Shown here one piece after another: positions 33,001-39,000 of a DNA stretch of 64,000 bases. The DNA comes from an uncultured Nitrososphaerota archaeon. GTDB taxonomy: Archaea > Thermoproteota > Nitrososphaeria > Nitrososphaerales > CADDZS01. Numbering within the stretch: the first letter of the stretch is position 1; every line of letters starts with the position of its first letter. The stretch covers positions 1,920,001-1,984,000 of the forward strand of contig CAWCYI010000004.1 in assembly GCA_963799845.1 (NCBI GenBank), written 5' to 3'. A program made the position numbers.

Positions 33001-36000
33001 ATGTCCATCAAGACCATGTAGATCACCGAGCTAATGTAGATCGAAGCAATGGGAGGGACGAATGAAGAGATGCTCTTTCCCAGTAGAATCTCGCTGTCTG
33101 ACATGGGAGTTGCAAGGAGAGGTTCGAGACTCTTTTCGATCTTCTCGCCGACTATGCTGTAAGAAGCGAGTCCACTTGGAAGAGAAGCTGCTCCAATGAC
33201 AAACCAAAAGGAAAATGCGTTCAGAAAAGGTGTAATGGACGCCGAGACTGTGTCTGCACTCGGATAGAAGTGTTGAATTGCAACAATAATCCCGGGGAAT
33301 CCGAAGGCTATTCCAAGCGGGAAAGCTATCGTGGCGTATATACTTCCCCTCCTGCTCTTGAAAGATTCAAAGTCCTTTGATGCGACTGACCAAGCGTTCT
33401 GCAAGTCCAATTCTATTCTGAGCTCCTGATCAAATTCAAATACACATCCTCAAGAGTCGAGCTTGCCTCTGTAACGTACTGGATGCGACCGCCCGCTGCC
33501 CCAATCGAGTTCACAATGTCAGGATTTTGTTTCTCGGGATCGCTAACCGTGATTATCAGCTTGTTTTCTGCTACCTCGACATTTGCAACTCCGAGTCTTT
33601 TGACCGCGGATATGATTGCATTGTTGACGGATTGAAGTTGAAAAACCGTCTTCCTTCCCAATATTGACTCTCTGAGCTTTTCCGGTGTTCCGACCGCTAT
33701 GAGTTTAGTTCTTAGTATGCCCACTCTATCGCAGATTCTTTCAGCCTCGTCAAGAAGATGAGTGTTAAGAAAGATTGTTTTTTTCTCTTTCTTGAGATCT
33801 AAGATGAAATCTCTCACTGTTTTCGAAGCTTCGGGATCCAAGTTTGCGGTGGGTTCGTCCAAGAAGAGAACTTTGGGATCGTGAATTAGTGCTCGAGCTA
33901 TCGCAAGTTTTTGCTTCATTCCCTTGGAGAATGTACCAGCCGGAAGATCCCTTTTCTCCCAAAGCTCCATTAGCTTTAGTAAATATTCTATCCTTTCTTT
34001 TCTCTTAATTTCGTCGACCTTGTAGTACCTGCCATAGAAATCCAGGTTCTTGTATGCGTTTAGTTCCTCGTAGAGACCGACGTTATCTGGAATCAGCCCG
34101 ATCATCCCTCTGATCTTTGGTTGATCCGCGCTGTTTCCAATGTCATAATCGCCTATCTTCGCGGTACCACTTGTCTTCGATATGAGGCATGCTAGCATTC
34201 GGATAGAAGTGGTCTTGCCAGCGCCATTGGGACCGAGAAACCCGAAAACTTCACCTTCGGCCACGTGAAGAGTGAGGTCATCGACAGCGGTGAGATCGCC
34301 AAATTTTCTCGTGAGGTTCTCCGCATCTATCAATTAGGTAAGTCCACGAAGATAACCCATCGTTGGAAATATAAAGCGCCCGCAGCTGTACAATTCTTGT
34401 ACAATGGATTAGACCGATTCGCGGATCGGCAGGTCCTAATCGGGAATATCGTTTCACATTGAGCGCGGACGCGATTCTATCCCCAGAGGAAGTAAAGAGC
34501 ATCGCCCAAAGAGTGCTCGCGATTGAACGGATTTTTCTCAGAAGGGGAGGTTTGTTTGGCATACTTTGTTTAGGTGAGAATGATGTGAATTTCCGACAGT
34601 TTGTGCTTACTAGGTGACATGATCGACCGTATTAAAGGAACGTAAAGCCACAGCCAAGCACATGTACGCAGCAATAGACTTGCACCAAAAAACTGTACAG
34701 TCAGTACTCAAGGATGAAGGGGGAAGGATAGAAAACGAGCTGAAGATCAACAAGGATGCAAAAAGCATACTCGAATTTCTTGATGGTACTGATGCTGAAA
34801 TAGTCATGGAGTCTGGTTACAACCACGAACACATCTATGATCTTCTAAAGGAGGAAGGATACGATGTCAAGGTAGCTCATCCATTGATGGTTAAGGCGAT
34901 CGCATACGCAAAAGTGAAAAATGACAAGGTAGACGGCGCGCCAAGGAATCTCTATGACTCGTGGACGTAAGTTCCACTCTGGGAATCGCAGGTTTGCCCA
35001 GATAGATTGGGGCACAGCTAGCGGAGCAATTCGCTGGCTGGAGCTGTCCTCAAATCAAATCCTCAGGCCGCAGCGCAAGCGAACTCGATGTAGCACCGTG
35101 AGGTCGGAGTGGGAAGGCCTAGCAAGTCGTCACTCTGCGAAGGCTAGAACTGCATCATCAGGTGTAATGCCTGTAGCCTGCGAGCATGCAGCTTCCCCGG
35201 TGTTGCAGGGGTGGCATGAGGAGAAAGCCATGGAGCCTAACTTGGGAGACCGGGTAGTGTCCATAGATGCTCTAACAACTAGGGCATCTTTGGTAGTGCT
35301 GCCTATAAGCTCGTTGAGCGAAATGGCGGCCGAAGCGCTGCACGGAGTCGGAAAGGCTAGTAGTATTCATGAGGGTGAGGACAGCACAACCTCGCACGAG
35401 AGAAGGAGCCTTACTTGTGTGCGTGACTGCTCAAAGTTCATGGACGAGTCCATTCTTCGCAAGAAGTAAGAGGTTGAAAGCTCGTAATTTGAAGCCCGTC
35501 GAAGAACTTCGTAGCAGTCTTTACCGAACAGCTGAAGGAGAACAAGGAAAGGAGATTCTACAGTCTAAAAGATAAAATCTGTCGGATCGATGTTTTGGAA
35601 GAAGCTTGGAAAAGAGTCAGAGCAAACAAAGGTGTGGAAGGAATCGACAACGAGACAATCGAGGACATAGAAAGGAGAGGAGTTGATGAATTCCTCTCGC
35701 GGCTACAGCAAGAACTCAAGGACGAAACATACAAAGTTCAGTGCGTCAGGAGAGTTTTCATTCCCAAACCGAATGGGAAGAAAAGACCTCTTGGTATCCC
35801 AACTGTAAGGGACAGGGTAGTTCAACAGGCGGTCAGATTAATCATCGAGCCGATATTCGAAGCTGATTTCCAAGATTTCAGCTACGGATACAGATCGCAC
35901 AGGTCGGCAAGAGATGCAAGCTTGGCAATCTACAGGTGCCTAAACTTCGGTCTTACGAACGTCATCGATGTTGACATCGAAGCGTTCTTCGACCACATAG

Positions 36001-39000
36001 ACCATTCAAAACTAATCTCCTTTGTCAAGGAGCGAGTCACAGACGGATACATCATCAAACTCGTCAGGGAATGGCTCAGGGCAGGCGTCGTCTACATGGG
36101 TGAAACGACTTATCCGAATGAGGGGACTCCTCAGGGTGGAGTCATCTCGCCTCTTCTAGCCAACATCTATCTCAACAAACTCGACGCAGCATGGACGGAG
36201 CTGAAGATGAACAGCAGATACAAGTACAATTCTCAGCTCGTTAGATACGCCGATGACATTGTAATCTTCACAGACAGGAGTTATGCAGGAAACATCATGA
36301 GGTTTCTCTCGGAATTTCTTTCCTCATATCTTGGACTCGAGCTGCGCGAGGACAAATCCAGAATCACTACAGCAAAGGAAGGATTTGATTTCCTTGGATT
36401 TCACTTCTTGAGAAGATTTGAGTTCAGGAAGGGGAAGGAAGTAACCAGATTCTTCCCGTCCAAAGCTACCGTGCGAAAGTTCAGGGACAAGGTTAGGGAG
36501 CTAACTGCAAGGGGTGTCACTCACGTCAAGGATGAAAGGCAGCTAGCCAAGGAACTGAACTTGCTCATTGTAGGATGGACTAACTACTTCAACCACTCTA
36601 ATGCCTCAGAAACATACGGAGACTTGCAGCACTACGTCGAATGGAAGTTCAGGCAATTCATACGCTTCAAACATCAGATTCGCAGATTGTCAGCCAGATA
36701 TGATGGCTTCGATCAGCCCTCTCAATTTGGCTTGAAATCTCTAGCGGGTAGAATCTCGTACGTAACTTGGGAGCCGTACGCTCTTCGGTGAAGCACCTCG
36801 GTAAGCTGTGTGAGGGAAAACTTCACGCACAGTTTGATGTGGGAGGGGGAGGATTGAAAACAAAATCCTCTCTTTCACCCAACCAAGGACACTTGCAGAT
36901 CTACTGAGACTGGACATGATACCGGAGTGCTACATCCCCAGCCAAGAGATAAGAGAAGTAAGAGACCTGGCAAGGAGGAGACATTATTTCGTCTCGACAA
37001 GAACGATGTTCAAAAACAAAATCCATGCAGAGCTCAGCAGGAGATGGATTGATTACAGTAAAGATCTCTTCACGCAGACTGGGATGGACCATCTAAAATC
37101 GCTTCATATCGCAGCGGTAAATGACTACCTCGACTCAATTCAGTTCCTCGATGAGAAGATACGAGAGCTTGACGGCCAAATCAAGGAAAAGCTCTTGGCG
37201 ACAAATATGCGAAGCTCCTTGTGACGGTGCCAGGAATATCCTACTACGGTGCGCTGCTGATTTCAAGCGAGATTGCAGACATCAACAGATTCCCAGACCC
37301 AGAACACCTGTGCTCCTATGCAAAACTGGCACCCGGAACTCATCAATCGGGAGAGACACAATACCAGAAAGCAGATCGTAACAAGGGCAATCACATGCTC
37401 AACTGGATATTGATCCAGTGTGCTCACATACACGTCCTAAACTGCAACTCGTCGATTACTGGGCATTACAACAGGATCAAGGAAACGAGGGGAAACAAGA
37501 TCGCCATCGTCGCAGCAGCAAGAAAACTGACGTGCGCAATCTACATGATGCTGAAGGAAGAAAGAGCCTTCAGGCTGGACGGCTAAAACCATAAACTGGG
37601 CTCGAGAATTTACTGCATCTTCAGGATGCGTTTACTAGGATGAGCCAAAGGCAATAAGCGAAAGCCACAATGCTCTTTTGGAGCGAATGGGAGTATGCTC
37701 GTCCAGCATGACAAAAGAGATATTAAGAAATGTAGCCCAGTCGACATGGGAGTAAATACGTGTCCGAATCTCGTTACATGACCGAGCTATCATCTTGAAA
37801 ATTTGGAAATAGGGGTTGTATTTTTACTAGTAAATTCGTGCGGGGGTCCCACAACTCGCACTCGGGATTTACTAGTAAAAACTGAAGCCAAATGCTCAAA
37901 CTTACACAGCAGCTCCCATAACGTTAGCGCGTTCATTTGCTGGCACAATTTACTGGCATCTCGAGGCTCAATTTAACCAATAAATACCTTGAACATGCGT
38001 GAACGACGAGTGCGAACGTGACAAATTCAAAACTCTCGTTCATACATGTCGGTTTACCCTTGGATCACCCATCTATCCCAATCGAAATTCAGAAGGAAGC
38101 GAGCGTGCAGCTCCCAAGGTTGCGCGACCGGATGCAAGCGGAAGGCTATGGATATGAGCTTGTGTTTGCTTCGCCCGAGGATGGCTTAGAGAACTTCAAG
38201 TCGCAGCTAGGGGCACGTGGACCGGATGGCGTCGTCATAGGCGGAGGAGTGGTAGGCAATCCTCAAATGCGCTTCTTCATGGAGCAGATCATTGATGTAA
38301 TACGAACCTCTGCACCTAAAAGCAAAATCCTTCTAATTGGCAGGCCAGAGGAAGCGCCAGCCGCTGTTGCGCGATGGTTCCCAAAGGCCTAGGTTGTTCC
38401 AAGTAATGCGAGACACCTGCGAGCGCACTTGATCTATCTCATCCTGAAACGCCCTAATCCTGCCACTCTTACTGTAGTCTTCTAGACCCAAACGGAAGGA
38501 GGTCTGATTGATAGTGCAGAAACCCCGGCTCAAGCTGCCTCGCGAGCTTCGCTCACTAGAGAAGCTCATTGGGAATTGGGGTGTTACGATTCGATGGTCC
38601 GAAGAGACACACAAACTGGTCGGTGGACCAAAAGAAGTGAAAGCTGAAGCAAAGATTTCCCTGATGAAAGAAGGAGGTTTTCTCCATTATCAGATGGGAC
38701 CCTCGCACTGGATAATCGGGAGAGATGAAAGCGCTCCAGAGTTTGCTGTTCTCTATAGCGATGAACGTCTGATTGCACGCGTATATCGAATGAGTTTCAC
38801 TCATGGGGTCTGGAAGCTTTGGAGAGATGCGCCCAAATTTCACCAGCGATTTGAGGGACACCTCAGATCTAATAAACGAAGAATAGATGCTTACTGGGAC
38901 AAATCAGAAGATGGGAAGTCCTGGATTCGCGACTTCGACATGATCTTTGTTCGTTCTGACTAATGCCTGGAATCCTTAGATTTGCAAAAAAAAGAAAAAT

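What a model noticed while it worked through the whole genome (the two positions that open the first line are those of the whole stretch)
34607..37756. Recently mobile group II intron in a thaumarchaeon: filled and empty sites of the same IS110-type element
A 1,948-bp group II intron (C4:1954936-1956883) with an RT-maturase ORF (g02678, RVT_1+GIIM, 398 aa) interrupts the transposase gene of an IS110-family element. An intron-less copy of the same IS lies at C6:903701-904902: its two halves match the intron's flanks at 99.4% (329 bp) and 100% (873 bp) and abut exactly (904029|904030). The genome thus holds both the invaded and the empty allele, which shows recent intron mobility in Nitrososphaerales; the nearest maturases are from acidophilic Thermoplasmatales (55% identity), which points to transfer between archaeal phyla.
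Evidence so far: Rfam group-II-D1D4-4 (1954959-1955078) and Intron_gpII (1956801-1956883) in rna.tsv; Pfam and NCBIfam of g02678; blastn of the locus against the genome gives the two abutting matches on C6; best GTDB hits of g02678: 2 Thermoplasmataceae at 55%, then Thermoplasmatota DTKX01 and bacteria at 45-48%, no Thermoproteota among the 10; GIIM domain in 10 of 400 other Nitrososphaerales genomes, 0 of 12 in the own family.
(Added by a program. Inside this text positions count along the whole contig: contig position 1,920,001 is position 1 of the stretch shown here. "Call 12" and the like, gene names such as g00115 and contig names such as C1 are that model's own, and its searches are not shown. 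The text may have been shortened before it was handed on; [...] marks where a part breaks off. The agent that wrote the report below was given it as the finding of a first reader that could run no searches.)

Follow-up and report, generated by a model that had tools for sequence, protein, structure and literature searches.

The report
Group II intron inside archaeal IS110
A self-splicing mobile intron sits inside the transposase gene of a jumping element in a soil archaeon, and an almost identical copy of that element elsewhere in the genome lacks it; this is a clear but fairly ordinary case of one selfish element living inside another.

Summary
Window 34936-36883 is a 1,948-nt group II intron with Rfam D1-D4 and D5/D6 matches and an endonuclease-less RT/maturase. 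It splits an IS110-family transposase gene inside the codon after a conserved DK(V/I)D motif. An intron-less twin of the IS lies at C6:903701-904902, with 2 differences in 1,202 nt, exactly abutting halves and different flanks.

New points:
- The frameshifts in the maturase (35534) and the transposase (37186) are absent from short-read soil contigs. They are probably assembly errors, so both genes are probably intact.
- Relatives occupy the same codon position: an about 94%-identical copy in another soil study, and introns with 67% and 50% maturase identity.
- Transposase genes lie in or beside the flanks of 7 of the 9 closest fetched relatives.
- The lineage has an unusual 5' end, GCGCG or GCACG.
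- Metagenomic maturases at 87, 85 and 78% identity and a Nitrososphaerota MAG protein are closer than the Thermoplasmatales proteins. The cross-phylum transfer idea is therefore not supported.

The near-identical filled and empty copies prove a recent intron gain or precise loss, but not its direction. Splicing was not tested. Verdict: new member of a known kind.

The parts
34607..34935 (+). Left part of the IS110-family element. It holds transposase exon 1 (ATG 34662 to 34935, 91 codons plus 1 nt), which ends ...KNDKVD + G.
   Evidence: blastn to C6:903701-904029, 99.39%. PF01548 DEDD_Tnp_IS110 profile positions 2-98 at C4:1954671-1954934. Junction read.
34936..36883 (+). Group II intron, 1,948 nt, 5'-GCGCG ... 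AAC-3', in the same orientation as the transposase gene.
   Evidence: Boundaries fixed by the empty copy. Rfam matches. Single copy in the genome.
34959..35078 (+). Ribozyme domain I region matched by Rfam group-II-D1D4-4.
   Evidence: 51.4 bits against gathering 49, E 3.6e-09.
35128..35134 (+). EBS1 loop (CGUCACU). CGUC pairs with the last four exon-1 bases, GACG.
   Evidence: Alignment A2 columns 214-220 against 14-20: 85.7% of cells paired against 60.2% in shuffles (0 of 500 as high), and 5 of 7 pairs change on both sides. The window has 4 contiguous pairs; relatives L009, L010 and L013 have 7.
35489..36791 (+). Intron-encoded RT/maturase without an endonuclease domain. As assembled it is split: TTG 35489 opens 15 codons (LKPVEELRSSLYRTA), an extra base at 35534 shifts the frame, and the remaining open frame gives the 398-aa ORF 35595-36791.
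   Evidence: Homologues start M/LKPVEEL...KENKERRFYSL. Base 35534 is left out in a contig of run X2 (table 4). Without it the ORF is 433 aa, with 388 of 433 residues identical to P0003. TIGR04416 scores 400.2 bits.
36801..36883 (+). Ribozyme domains V and VI. The AGC triad and GAAA loop of D5 are present. An unpaired A in D6 lies 7 nt from the 3' end.
   Evidence: RF00029, 48.1 bits against gathering 40, with the alignment shown.
36884..37756 (+). Right part of the IS. Transposase exon 2 (CA AGG ACA..., i.e. (A)RTLADLLR...) runs to the stop at 37586, with a one-base frame break at the A run near 37186. A 170-nt non-coding tail follows (37587-37756).
   Evidence: blastn 100% to C6:904030-904902. 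PF01548 positions 101-151 and PF02371 Transposase_20. An A is put in behind 37186 in a contig of run X1. With it the spliced ORF is 325 aa, with 294 of 326 aligned positions identical to P0122.

Best explanation
This is a genuine, probably functional, endonuclease-less group II intron. It lives inside an IS110-family insertion sequence of a soil Nitrososphaerales-type archaeon. It lies in the sense orientation inside the codon that follows the conserved DK(V/I)D motif of the DEDD transposase domain. A full-length transposase (325 aa) can therefore only be made from spliced RNA (inferred). By analogy with characterised introns that lack the endonuclease domain, the excised intron RNA bound to its RT/maturase would reverse-splice into single-stranded DNA of an intron-less IS copy. 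It would recognise the site partly through EBS1-IBS1 pairing, and it would then be copied into DNA (inferred). The intron belongs to a lineage whose members sit in or next to transposase genes, several of them at exactly this IS110 codon. It has co-diverged with this IS family in soil archaea and is not a fresh import from Thermoplasmatales. The two IS copies in this genome differ by only 2 of 1,202 nt, and one has the intron while the other lacks it. One intron gain (retrohoming, which I favour at about 55%) or one precise loss (about 30%) therefore happened very recently. Exon homogenisation by gene conversion takes most of the remaining odds.
For: Identity: both Rfam ribozyme models score above gathering. 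TIGR04416 scores 400 bits against 300. RVT_1 and GIIM are present.

Precise insertion: the empty twin abuts to the base and has different flanks.

Likely intact genes: the two frame breaks (35534 and 37186) are absent from independent short-read contigs. Removing or adding those single bases gives a 433-aa maturase and a 325-aa transposase of homologue length. Homologues of the transposase are uninterrupted 325-aa proteins.

Conserved site: Pfam DEDD_Tnp_IS110 is split at profile positions 98|101 in the window and in L005, whose maturase is 67% identical. L020 (50%) has exon 1 ending ...TDKVD+G and exon 2 starting CG GAG ACC..., the same codon phase. A run of another study holds a contig at about 94% identity that bridges the 3' junction, 36742-37115 (record 29).

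IS association: transposase sequences lie in or beside the flanks of 7 of the 9 fetched relatives with at least 50% maturase identity. They are IS110 in L005, L020, L007 and L009, DDE/DUF772 in L006 and L010, and IS3 in L008.

EBS1-IBS1 covaries.

Native lineage.
Against: No RNA data exist, so splicing is not shown. The intron is single copy, so no donor for a retrohoming event is visible. Two intact target sites remain empty: C6:904020 is identical and C6:961699 has one mismatch. This argues for low or no current homing. EBS1-IBS1 pairing in the window is only 4 bp, against 7 bp in three relatives, and no EBS2 was found. The 5' end is GCGCG, not the GUGYG consensus. The read evidence for an intact maturase rests on one contig at depth 3. 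The taxon label of the genome comes from the finding and from homologue names, not from a marker analysis of mine.
Confidence: 0.8

Rival explanations
1. The intron-less twin arose by precise intron loss. A filled IS copy duplicated by transposition, and one copy then lost the intron by recombination with a reverse-transcribed spliced transcript. The filled state is ancestral here and no recent retrohoming took place.
For: The same intron-IS junction exists in an about 94%-identical relative from another study, and at the same codon in L005 and L020. The filled state is therefore old. No second intron copy that could have served as donor exists in the assembly. Two cognate sites stay empty.
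Against: It needs two events, IS duplication and then loss. The diverged third copy (82-85%) is also empty. Homologous transposases in the databases are mostly uninterrupted 325-aa genes, so empty copies are the common state from which gain is easy. The assembly is 86.7% complete, so a donor may be unassembled.
Confidence: 0.3
2. One reading: the intron was recently acquired by horizontal transfer from acidophilic Thermoplasmatales into a thaumarchaeon.
For: Named Thermoplasmatales proteins are 53-56% identical. Only 12 of 400 other genomes of the order have any RT relative, and the best complete ones are at most 44% identical. One mine-drainage run holds a small share (0.05) of the words. I did not lay that run, so it is no evidence of habitat.
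Against: Unnamed metagenome proteins at 87, 85, 78 and 67% identity and a Nitrososphaerota MAG protein at 57% are closer or equal. The tree puts the window with the Nitrososphaerota protein (52-row clade, support 99), apart from the Thermoplasmatales clade. The host IS has 80-83% homologues named Nitrososphaerales. The intron and the IS exons are equally diverged, at about 5.5%, in another soil study. Intron GC is 0.489 against 0.477 for the contig.
Confidence: 0.07
3. The intron is a decaying, immobile relic. The frameshifts in the maturase and the transposase are real, and the element neither splices efficiently nor moves.
For: As assembled, the maturase loses its first 35 residues and the transposase is split in both twin copies. 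The third IS copy has several frame breaks. Target sites are unoccupied.
Against: Short-read contigs lack both frame breaks. The corrected lengths match homologues exactly, at 433 and 325 aa. A chance contig error at exactly the frame-restoring base is unlikely. The ribozyme models score above gathering.
Confidence: 0.1
4. The filled and empty copies belong to two different organisms that were binned together, so no single genome holds both states.
For: The genome is a 9-contig metagenome bin of 4.6 Mb, larger than its relatives (1.4-3.7 Mb), with 4.87% contamination.
Against: Low marker redundancy argues against two merged genomes. C4 and C6 have GC 0.477 and 0.472. They share the same roughly 60-nt repeat family, with 16 hits each, and other identical IS110 copies. 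Even if the rival were true, a gain or loss event would still be required in the community.
Confidence: 0.05

Closest known systems
RmInt1 of Sinorhizobium meliloti in ISRm2011-2 (abstracts of PMC1802570, PMC4238363 and PMC8914252 seen in the search listing)
   Same: The maturase lacks the endonuclease domain. The natural homing site lies inside an insertion sequence. Filled and empty IS copies coexist in genomes. Splicing is discussed as a control on the spread of the host element. This is the best model for how the window intron probably works.
   Different: RmInt1 is bacterial and its host IS is not IS110-family (recalled). I did not test the relatedness of the two maturases. The window intron starts GCGCG and shows only 4 bp of EBS1-IBS1 pairing.
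Archaeal group II introns of Methanosarcina and Thermoplasmatota (PMC8919778 passages; PMC4424553 passages)
   Same: These are group II introns in archaea, assigned there to the CL, C, D and E lineages and regarded as acquired from bacteria. Copy numbers are low.
   Different: [quoted passage not shown] The window is from a Nitrososphaerales-type genome. Homing of Methanosarcina introns into other introns' ORFs is recalled, not checked here.
Thermoplasmatales-type relatives (E-plasma P0055, Thermoplasmataceae P0067, Cuniculiplasma P0109; metagenome loci L007-L010 and L013)
   Same: Maturase identity is 53-56%, the ribozyme domain I is alignable, a C stands at intron position 2 (GCACG), and transposases lie in the flanks.
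   Different: They form a separate clade in the quick tree. They match Rfam D1D4-6 rather than D1D4-4. The loci I fetched use other insertion sites: upstream of an IS110 gene, in a DUF772 transposase, and upstream of IS3 orfA.
Solved group II intron RT/maturases in the PDB (7uim_D, 5hhj, 5hhl, GsI-IIC RT 6ar1)
   Same: These are the best sequence matches among solved structures: E 3.1e-62 to 1.2e-54, against 6.5e-45 for 6me0 and 2.5e-43 for LtrA 5g2x. They are compact RT plus thumb/X proteins without an endonuclease domain.
   Different: The relationship is distant. The window intron sits inside an ORF, and its relatives have 7-bp EBS1 pairings, unlike what I recall for IIC introns. The intron class was not determined.

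Membership tests
Group II intron (retroelement form) | Catalytic domain V followed by domain VI with an unpaired branch adenosine | tested here: met
   RF00029 scores 48.1 bits against gathering 40. The alignment shows the AGC triad, the GAAA loop and an unpaired A aligned to the consensus branch A, 7 nt from the 3' end.
Group II intron (retroelement form) | Domains I-IV ribozyme scaffold | tested here: met
   RF02003 scores 51.4 bits against gathering 49. Domain I aligns with five relatives at 68% mean column identity.
Group II intron (retroelement form) | Intron-encoded protein with RT and maturase (X) domains in domain IV | tested here: met
   TIGR04416 scores 400.2 bits against cut-off 300. 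RVT_1 3.7e-38 and GIIM 5.4e-14. The ORF is broken at codon 16 as assembled and intact in a read contig.
Group II intron (retroelement form) | Boundary consensus 5'-GUGYG ... AY-3' (typical, not absolute; PMC4424553 passages) | tested here: inconclusive
   The 3' end AC fits. The 5' end is GCGCG, with C at position 2. The same GCGCG is found in L005 and L011, GCACG in L007-L010 and L013, and GUGUG in L020. The deviation is therefore a lineage trait, not damage.
Group II intron (retroelement form) | EBS1-IBS1 pairing between domain I and the end of the 5' exon | tested here: met
   The pairing covaries in 6 sequences: 85.7% paired against 60.2% shuffled, 0 of 500 shuffles as high, and slid controls at most 57%. 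The window has only 4 contiguous pairs.
Group II intron (retroelement form) | EBS2-IBS2 pairing (IIA/IIB types) | tested here: inconclusive
   A scan of alignment A2 found no column block that pairs with a constant exon offset in all six sequences.
Group II intron (retroelement form) | Precise insertion relative to an uninterrupted homing site | tested here: met
   The empty twin C6:904029|904030 abuts exactly and the reading frame is continuous across the joint.
Group II intron (retroelement form) | Splicing and retromobility | not testable with these tools
   No RNA run was listed for this stretch.
IS110 family insertion sequence | DEDD (RuvC-like) N-terminal domain plus Transposase_20 C-terminal domain in one protein | tested here: met
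   PF01548 3.2e-19 and PF02371 1.9e-18 on the empty copy. Homologues of 325 aa carry both domains. The one-base frame break is absent from a read contig.
IS110 family insertion sequence | Site-specific insertion, with ends lacking classical long inverted repeats | tested here: inconclusive
   All three copies lie within about 65 nt of a copy of one 60-nt repeat family. The IS ends TTACTAG...GTAAA resemble that repeat's terminal motif. I did not analyse this further.
Group IIC (class C) introns | Insertion after a terminator-like stem-loop, very short IBS1, no EBS2 | tested here: not met
   The intron lies inside a coding sequence at a conserved codon. Relatives have 7-bp EBS1-IBS1 pairings. 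Only the short 4-bp pairing in the window and the PDB ranking resemble IIC. The defining features are recalled, not taken from a call.

The most novel reading that the evidence does not exclude
An archaea-centred lineage of endonuclease-less group II introns carries a non-canonical 5' end (GCGCG or GCACG) and has specialised on transposase genes. One branch has kept, across 50-94% maturase identity, the very same codon of the catalytic DEDD domain of IS110-family recombinases as its homing site. Recombinase production in these soil archaea then depends on splicing, so the intron would act as a brake or switch on the spread of its host IS.
Probability: 0.3. Interest if true: 0.55.

Novelty: new member of a known kind. 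Interest (0 to 1): 0.4.

Why it matters
Group II introns are rare in archaea. [quoted passage not shown] Later surveys list them in TACK archaea without detail (PMC8632793 passages; bioRxiv 10.1101/2024.12.10.627823 section 7). This locus gives a base-precise filled and empty pair in a Nitrososphaerales-type genome, with a probably intact maturase. It is therefore a concrete candidate for testing group II intron splicing and retrohoming in this phylum. It also shows that an intron lineage tracks a conserved codon of IS110-family recombinases, which is of some interest now that these enzymes are studied as programmable recombinases. Practically, it flags single-base indel errors in this assembly and corrects an over-reading of horizontal transfer that came from a sparse reference set.

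Tried and rejected
- RNA evidence: no RNA holder was listed for the stretch, so expression and splicing could not be examined.
The look-up tool by protein is closed, so their flanks and hosts remain unknown.
The best 80 were bacterial at 38-48% plus one Thorarchaeota MAG. It did not retrieve the Thermoplasmatales or Nitrososphaerota records, so it does not bear on the transfer question.
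- EBS2 search: no consistent pairing was found.
- Simple complement scans for IBS1: no 6-7-nt match in the window intron. The EBS1 loop was found only through the alignment.
- Intron class: not determined. No reference set of classed maturases was at hand, and the PDB ranking is only a hint.
- Fold of the IS 3' tail 37587-37756: z -1.77, with 9 of 200 shuffles as good. No Rfam match besides the intron in 30000-42000. No claim of a guide or bridge RNA is made.
- amoA (PF12942): no match in the genome, but the control rang in no genome, so this is uninformative.
- Depth was not used to estimate copy numbers, because contig depths are not suitable for that.
- Junction contigs: the contigs that touch the 5' junction or the empty joint carry only 22-30 letters on one side, so I do not count them as bridging.
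- The supplements of the bioRxiv preprint (trees and tables of archaeal introns) are closed. They may list Nitrososphaerales introns that I could not see.

Full report
**1. What is there**

Rfam places group-II-D1D4-4 at 34959-35078 (51.4 bits, gathering 49) and Intron_gpII (domains V and VI) at 36801-36883 (48.1 bits, gathering 40). No other match appears in 30000-42000 at E up to 0.1. Between the two matches lies the 398-aa ORF 35595-36791. It has RVT_1 and GIIM domains and a TIGR04416 'group II intron reverse transcriptase/maturase' score of 400.2 bits against a cut-off of 300. It has no endonuclease domain.

The flanking reading frames are the two halves of an IS110-family transposase. DEDD_Tnp_IS110 and Transposase_20 both match on the intron-less copy.

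**2. Filled and empty sites**

blastn of window 34400-37900 against the 9-contig genome gives C6:903701-904029 (329 nt, 99.39%) and C6:904030-904902 (873 nt, 100%), which abut.
- The IS is 34607-34935 plus 36884-37756 (1,202 nt), and the intron is 34936-36883 (1,948 nt).
- The bases on either side of both junctions differ between the filled and empty sequences, so the boundaries cannot slide.
- The only differences are two adjacent bases at IS positions 95-96. The sequences outside the IS are unrelated, so these are two loci.
- A third, intron-less copy at 82-85% identity lies at C6:961379-962589, with several frame breaks.
- GIIM, RVT_1 and RF00029 each hit the genome once.
- The 16-nt target core occurs only at the two empty copies, once identical and once with a mismatch at -5.

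**3. Two frame breaks that are probably not real**

Homologues of the maturase begin M/LKPVEEL..YRTAKENKERRFYSL. In the window that N-terminus starts at TTG 35489 but sits in another frame than the 398-aa ORF. One extra base lies at 35534. The transposase is likewise split at an A run near 37186, in both twin copies. The third copy reads through that point.

I laid Logan contigs of four soil-metagenome runs on the locus.
- A contig of run X2 leaves out base 35534 (depth 3 of 3).
- A contig of run X1 has an extra A behind 37186 (depth 14.8 of 14.8).

With these two single-base states the maturase ORF is 433 aa, with 388 of 433 residues identical to P0003 and 39 of 39 identical over positions 2-40. 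The spliced transposase is 325 aa, with 294 of 326 aligned positions identical to P0122. These are the lengths of the homologues. I read both breaks as assembly errors or minority variants. The depth-3 contig is weak on its own, but it restores the frame at exactly the right base.

**4. Ribozyme details**

Domain V has the AGC triad and a GAAA loop. Domain VI has an unpaired A 7 nt from the 3' end. The intron ends in AC.

It begins GCGCG, not GUGYG. This is a lineage trait. L005 and L011 also begin GCGCG. L007-L010 and L013 begin GCACG. The more distant L020 begins GUGUG.

An alignment of domain I with five relatives reveals a variable loop that pairs with the last bases of each intron's own 5' exon.
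- The pairing is 7 bp in L009, L010 and L013, 5 bp in L008, and 4 bp in the window (CGUC with GACG) and in L005.
- 85.7% of cells pair against 60.2% in shuffles (0 of 500 as high).
- 5 of 7 pairs change on both sides, and slid controls reach at most 57%.

This loop is EBS1. I found no EBS2.

**5. The insertion site is conserved in relatives**

The intron splits Pfam DEDD_Tnp_IS110 between profile positions 98 and 101, after the first base of the codon that follows DKVD.
- L005 (maturase 67% identical) is split at the same profile positions and in the same codon phase...KIDT|CT....
- L020 (50%) has exon 1 ...TDKVD+G and exon 2 CG GAG ACC.. (AETLAHLLR), again the same phase.
- In run X5, from a different study, a contig with 23 differences and 3 gaps over 374 nt bridges the 3' junction (36742-37115). 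Another contig covers 34914-35506 with 33 differences, but it has only 22 letters on the exon side, so I do not count it as bridging. An exon-1 contig shows 9 differences in 162 nt.

Intron and exons are thus about equally diverged, at roughly 5.5-6%. This fits long co-residence.

**6. The wider lineage sits in transposases**

I examined the 9 fetched metagenome loci with at least 50% maturase identity (L005-L011, L013, L020). Seven of the 9 have transposase sequence in or right beside the exons.
- IS110: L005, L020, and the near-identical pair L007 and L009. In that pair an intact IS110 gene starts shortly after the intron.
- DDE_Tnp_1_6 in the 3' exon of L006, and DUF772 in the 5' exon of L010.
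- IS3 orfA and orfB after L008.
- L011 and L013 have too little flank to judge.
- L016 (48%) interrupts an IS110 gene at profile position 11.

Across all 80 metagenome loci, tblastn with four IS110 queries hit 6: L005, L007, L009, L016, L020 and L025. L025 is on the opposite strand and is not interrupted. Across the 94 genome loci L086-L179 it hit 1, L158, also on the opposite strand. Bacterial group II introns are often surrounded by other mobile DNAs (PMC4424553 passages), and RmInt1 homes into ISRm2011-2 (abstracts). The behaviour is therefore known.

**7. Where the intron comes from**

In the 5.8-billion-protein search only the 8,000 candidates sharing most words were scored, and 120 were listed. 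The nearest proteins are unnamed metagenome sequences at 87, 85, 78, 67 and 66% identity. Four listed rows carry an organism name: Nitrososphaerota archaeon at 57%, E-plasma at 56%, Thermoplasmataceae at 55% and Cuniculiplasma at 53%.

I built a FastTree tree of 121 rows. These were 115 of the listed proteins of at least 380 aa, without the window's own duplicate P0002, plus 6 outgroup translations.
- The window falls with P0003, P0004 and P0005 inside a 52-row clade (support 99) that also holds the Nitrososphaerota protein.
- The three Thermoplasmatales proteins lie in a separate 34-row clade (support 85).
- 110 rows have no name, and the method is quick, so this is indicative only.

Among 400 other genomes of the order, 12 have an RT relative. 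The best is a 51% fragment in the own family, and the rest are at most 44%. The host IS has full-length homologues up to 90% identical, with two named 'Nitrososphaerales archaeon' at 83% and 80%. Taken together, the intron looks like a resident of IS110 elements of soil Nitrososphaerales-type archaea that are poorly represented among reference genomes. It does not look like a recent import from Thermoplasmatales.

**8. What the filled and empty pair proves**

IS copies descend from IS copies. A filled and an empty copy that differ by 0.17% must therefore have experienced one intron gain or one precise loss since their common ancestor, unless gene conversion homogenised the exons. The direction is open.
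- Gain by retrohoming is the standard route, and empty copies are the common state in databases. However, no donor copy is visible and two good sites stay empty.
- Loss needs no donor and fits the old filled state seen in relatives. However, it needs a prior duplication of a filled IS.
- I put gain at about 55% and loss at about 30%.
- C4 and C6 share GC content (0.477 and 0.472) and a 60-nt repeat family with 16 hits each. A binning chimera is therefore unlikely.

**9. Literature**

[quoted passage not shown] A review states that group II introns make up 55-75% of the RTs in the TACK group (PMC8632793 passages). A 2024 preprint reports them in 'many TACK' archaea (10.1101/2024.12.10.627823, section 7).

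Searches for 'group II intron' with 'Thaumarchaeota' (17 papers), 'Nitrososphaera' (2 papers) and 'IS110' (41 papers, 15 listed) showed no title or abstract describing a mobile intron in Nitrososphaerales or an IS110-specific intron lineage. I read none of the IS110 papers. The preprint's supplements are closed.

**10. Verdict**

It is a new member of a known kind: an endonuclease-less group II intron nested in an insertion sequence, like RmInt1. It occurs in a phylum where such introns are rarely documented. The conserved IS110 codon site and the GCGCG or GCACG 5' end are modest additions. The cross-phylum transfer claim is not supported.

Noticed in passing
window 37811-37880; also C6:904933-904964 and C6:962578-962618: A roughly 60-nt repeat bounded by TTTACTAGTAAA-like motifs has 37 blastn hits in the genome (C4 16, C6 16, C7 5). 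A copy lies within about 65 nt of the right end of all three IS copies. The IS ends TTACTAG...GTAAA resemble the repeat's terminal motif. This suggests that the IS inserts site-specifically into or next to this repeat.
   Followed up: partly
window 35534 and 37186 (and the same A run in C6:903701-904902): Short-read contigs contradict the assembly by single-base indels at these two places. The assembly may hold more such errors. Split genes elsewhere in this genome should not be read as pseudogenes without read support.
   Followed up: partly
L009 2064-3215, L007 4375-4554, L016 1521-2162: Related introns (54% and 48% maturase identity) use other positions at IS110 elements. One lies just upstream of an intact IS110 transposase gene. 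Another lies at about profile position 11 of the DEDD domain.
   Followed up: partly
window 37587-37756: The 170-nt non-coding tail of the IS lies downstream of the transposase stop, whereas only 55 nt lie upstream of the start. The fold z-score is -1.77 and there is no Rfam match. Whether it encodes a guide (bridge-type) RNA was not tested.
   Followed up: partly
window 30419-31414 (-) and 39010-40395 (-): The neighbourhood is rich in insertion sequences. It holds an rve-type (IS3-like) transposase and an IS66-family transposase with its zinc finger, around an ABC-2 transporter pair at 32667-34333.
   Followed up: no
whole genome G000: No Archaeal_AmoA (PF12942) match was found in the 86.7%-complete genome, but the control genomes gave no match either. 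Whether this organism oxidises ammonia is therefore left open. At 4.6 Mb the bin is larger than its listed relatives.
   Followed up: no
window 34954-35469 (+): A 171-aa ORF lies inside ribozyme domains I-III. It has no Pfam match and is most likely a chance open frame in structured RNA.
   Followed up: yes
C6:961379-962589 (L003 2001-3211): The third IS copy has a start-proximal truncation and at least two further frame breaks. It also shares a one-codon insertion (..YSKTDLF..) with the variant seen in run X5 (AGG put in behind 37061).
   Followed up: no
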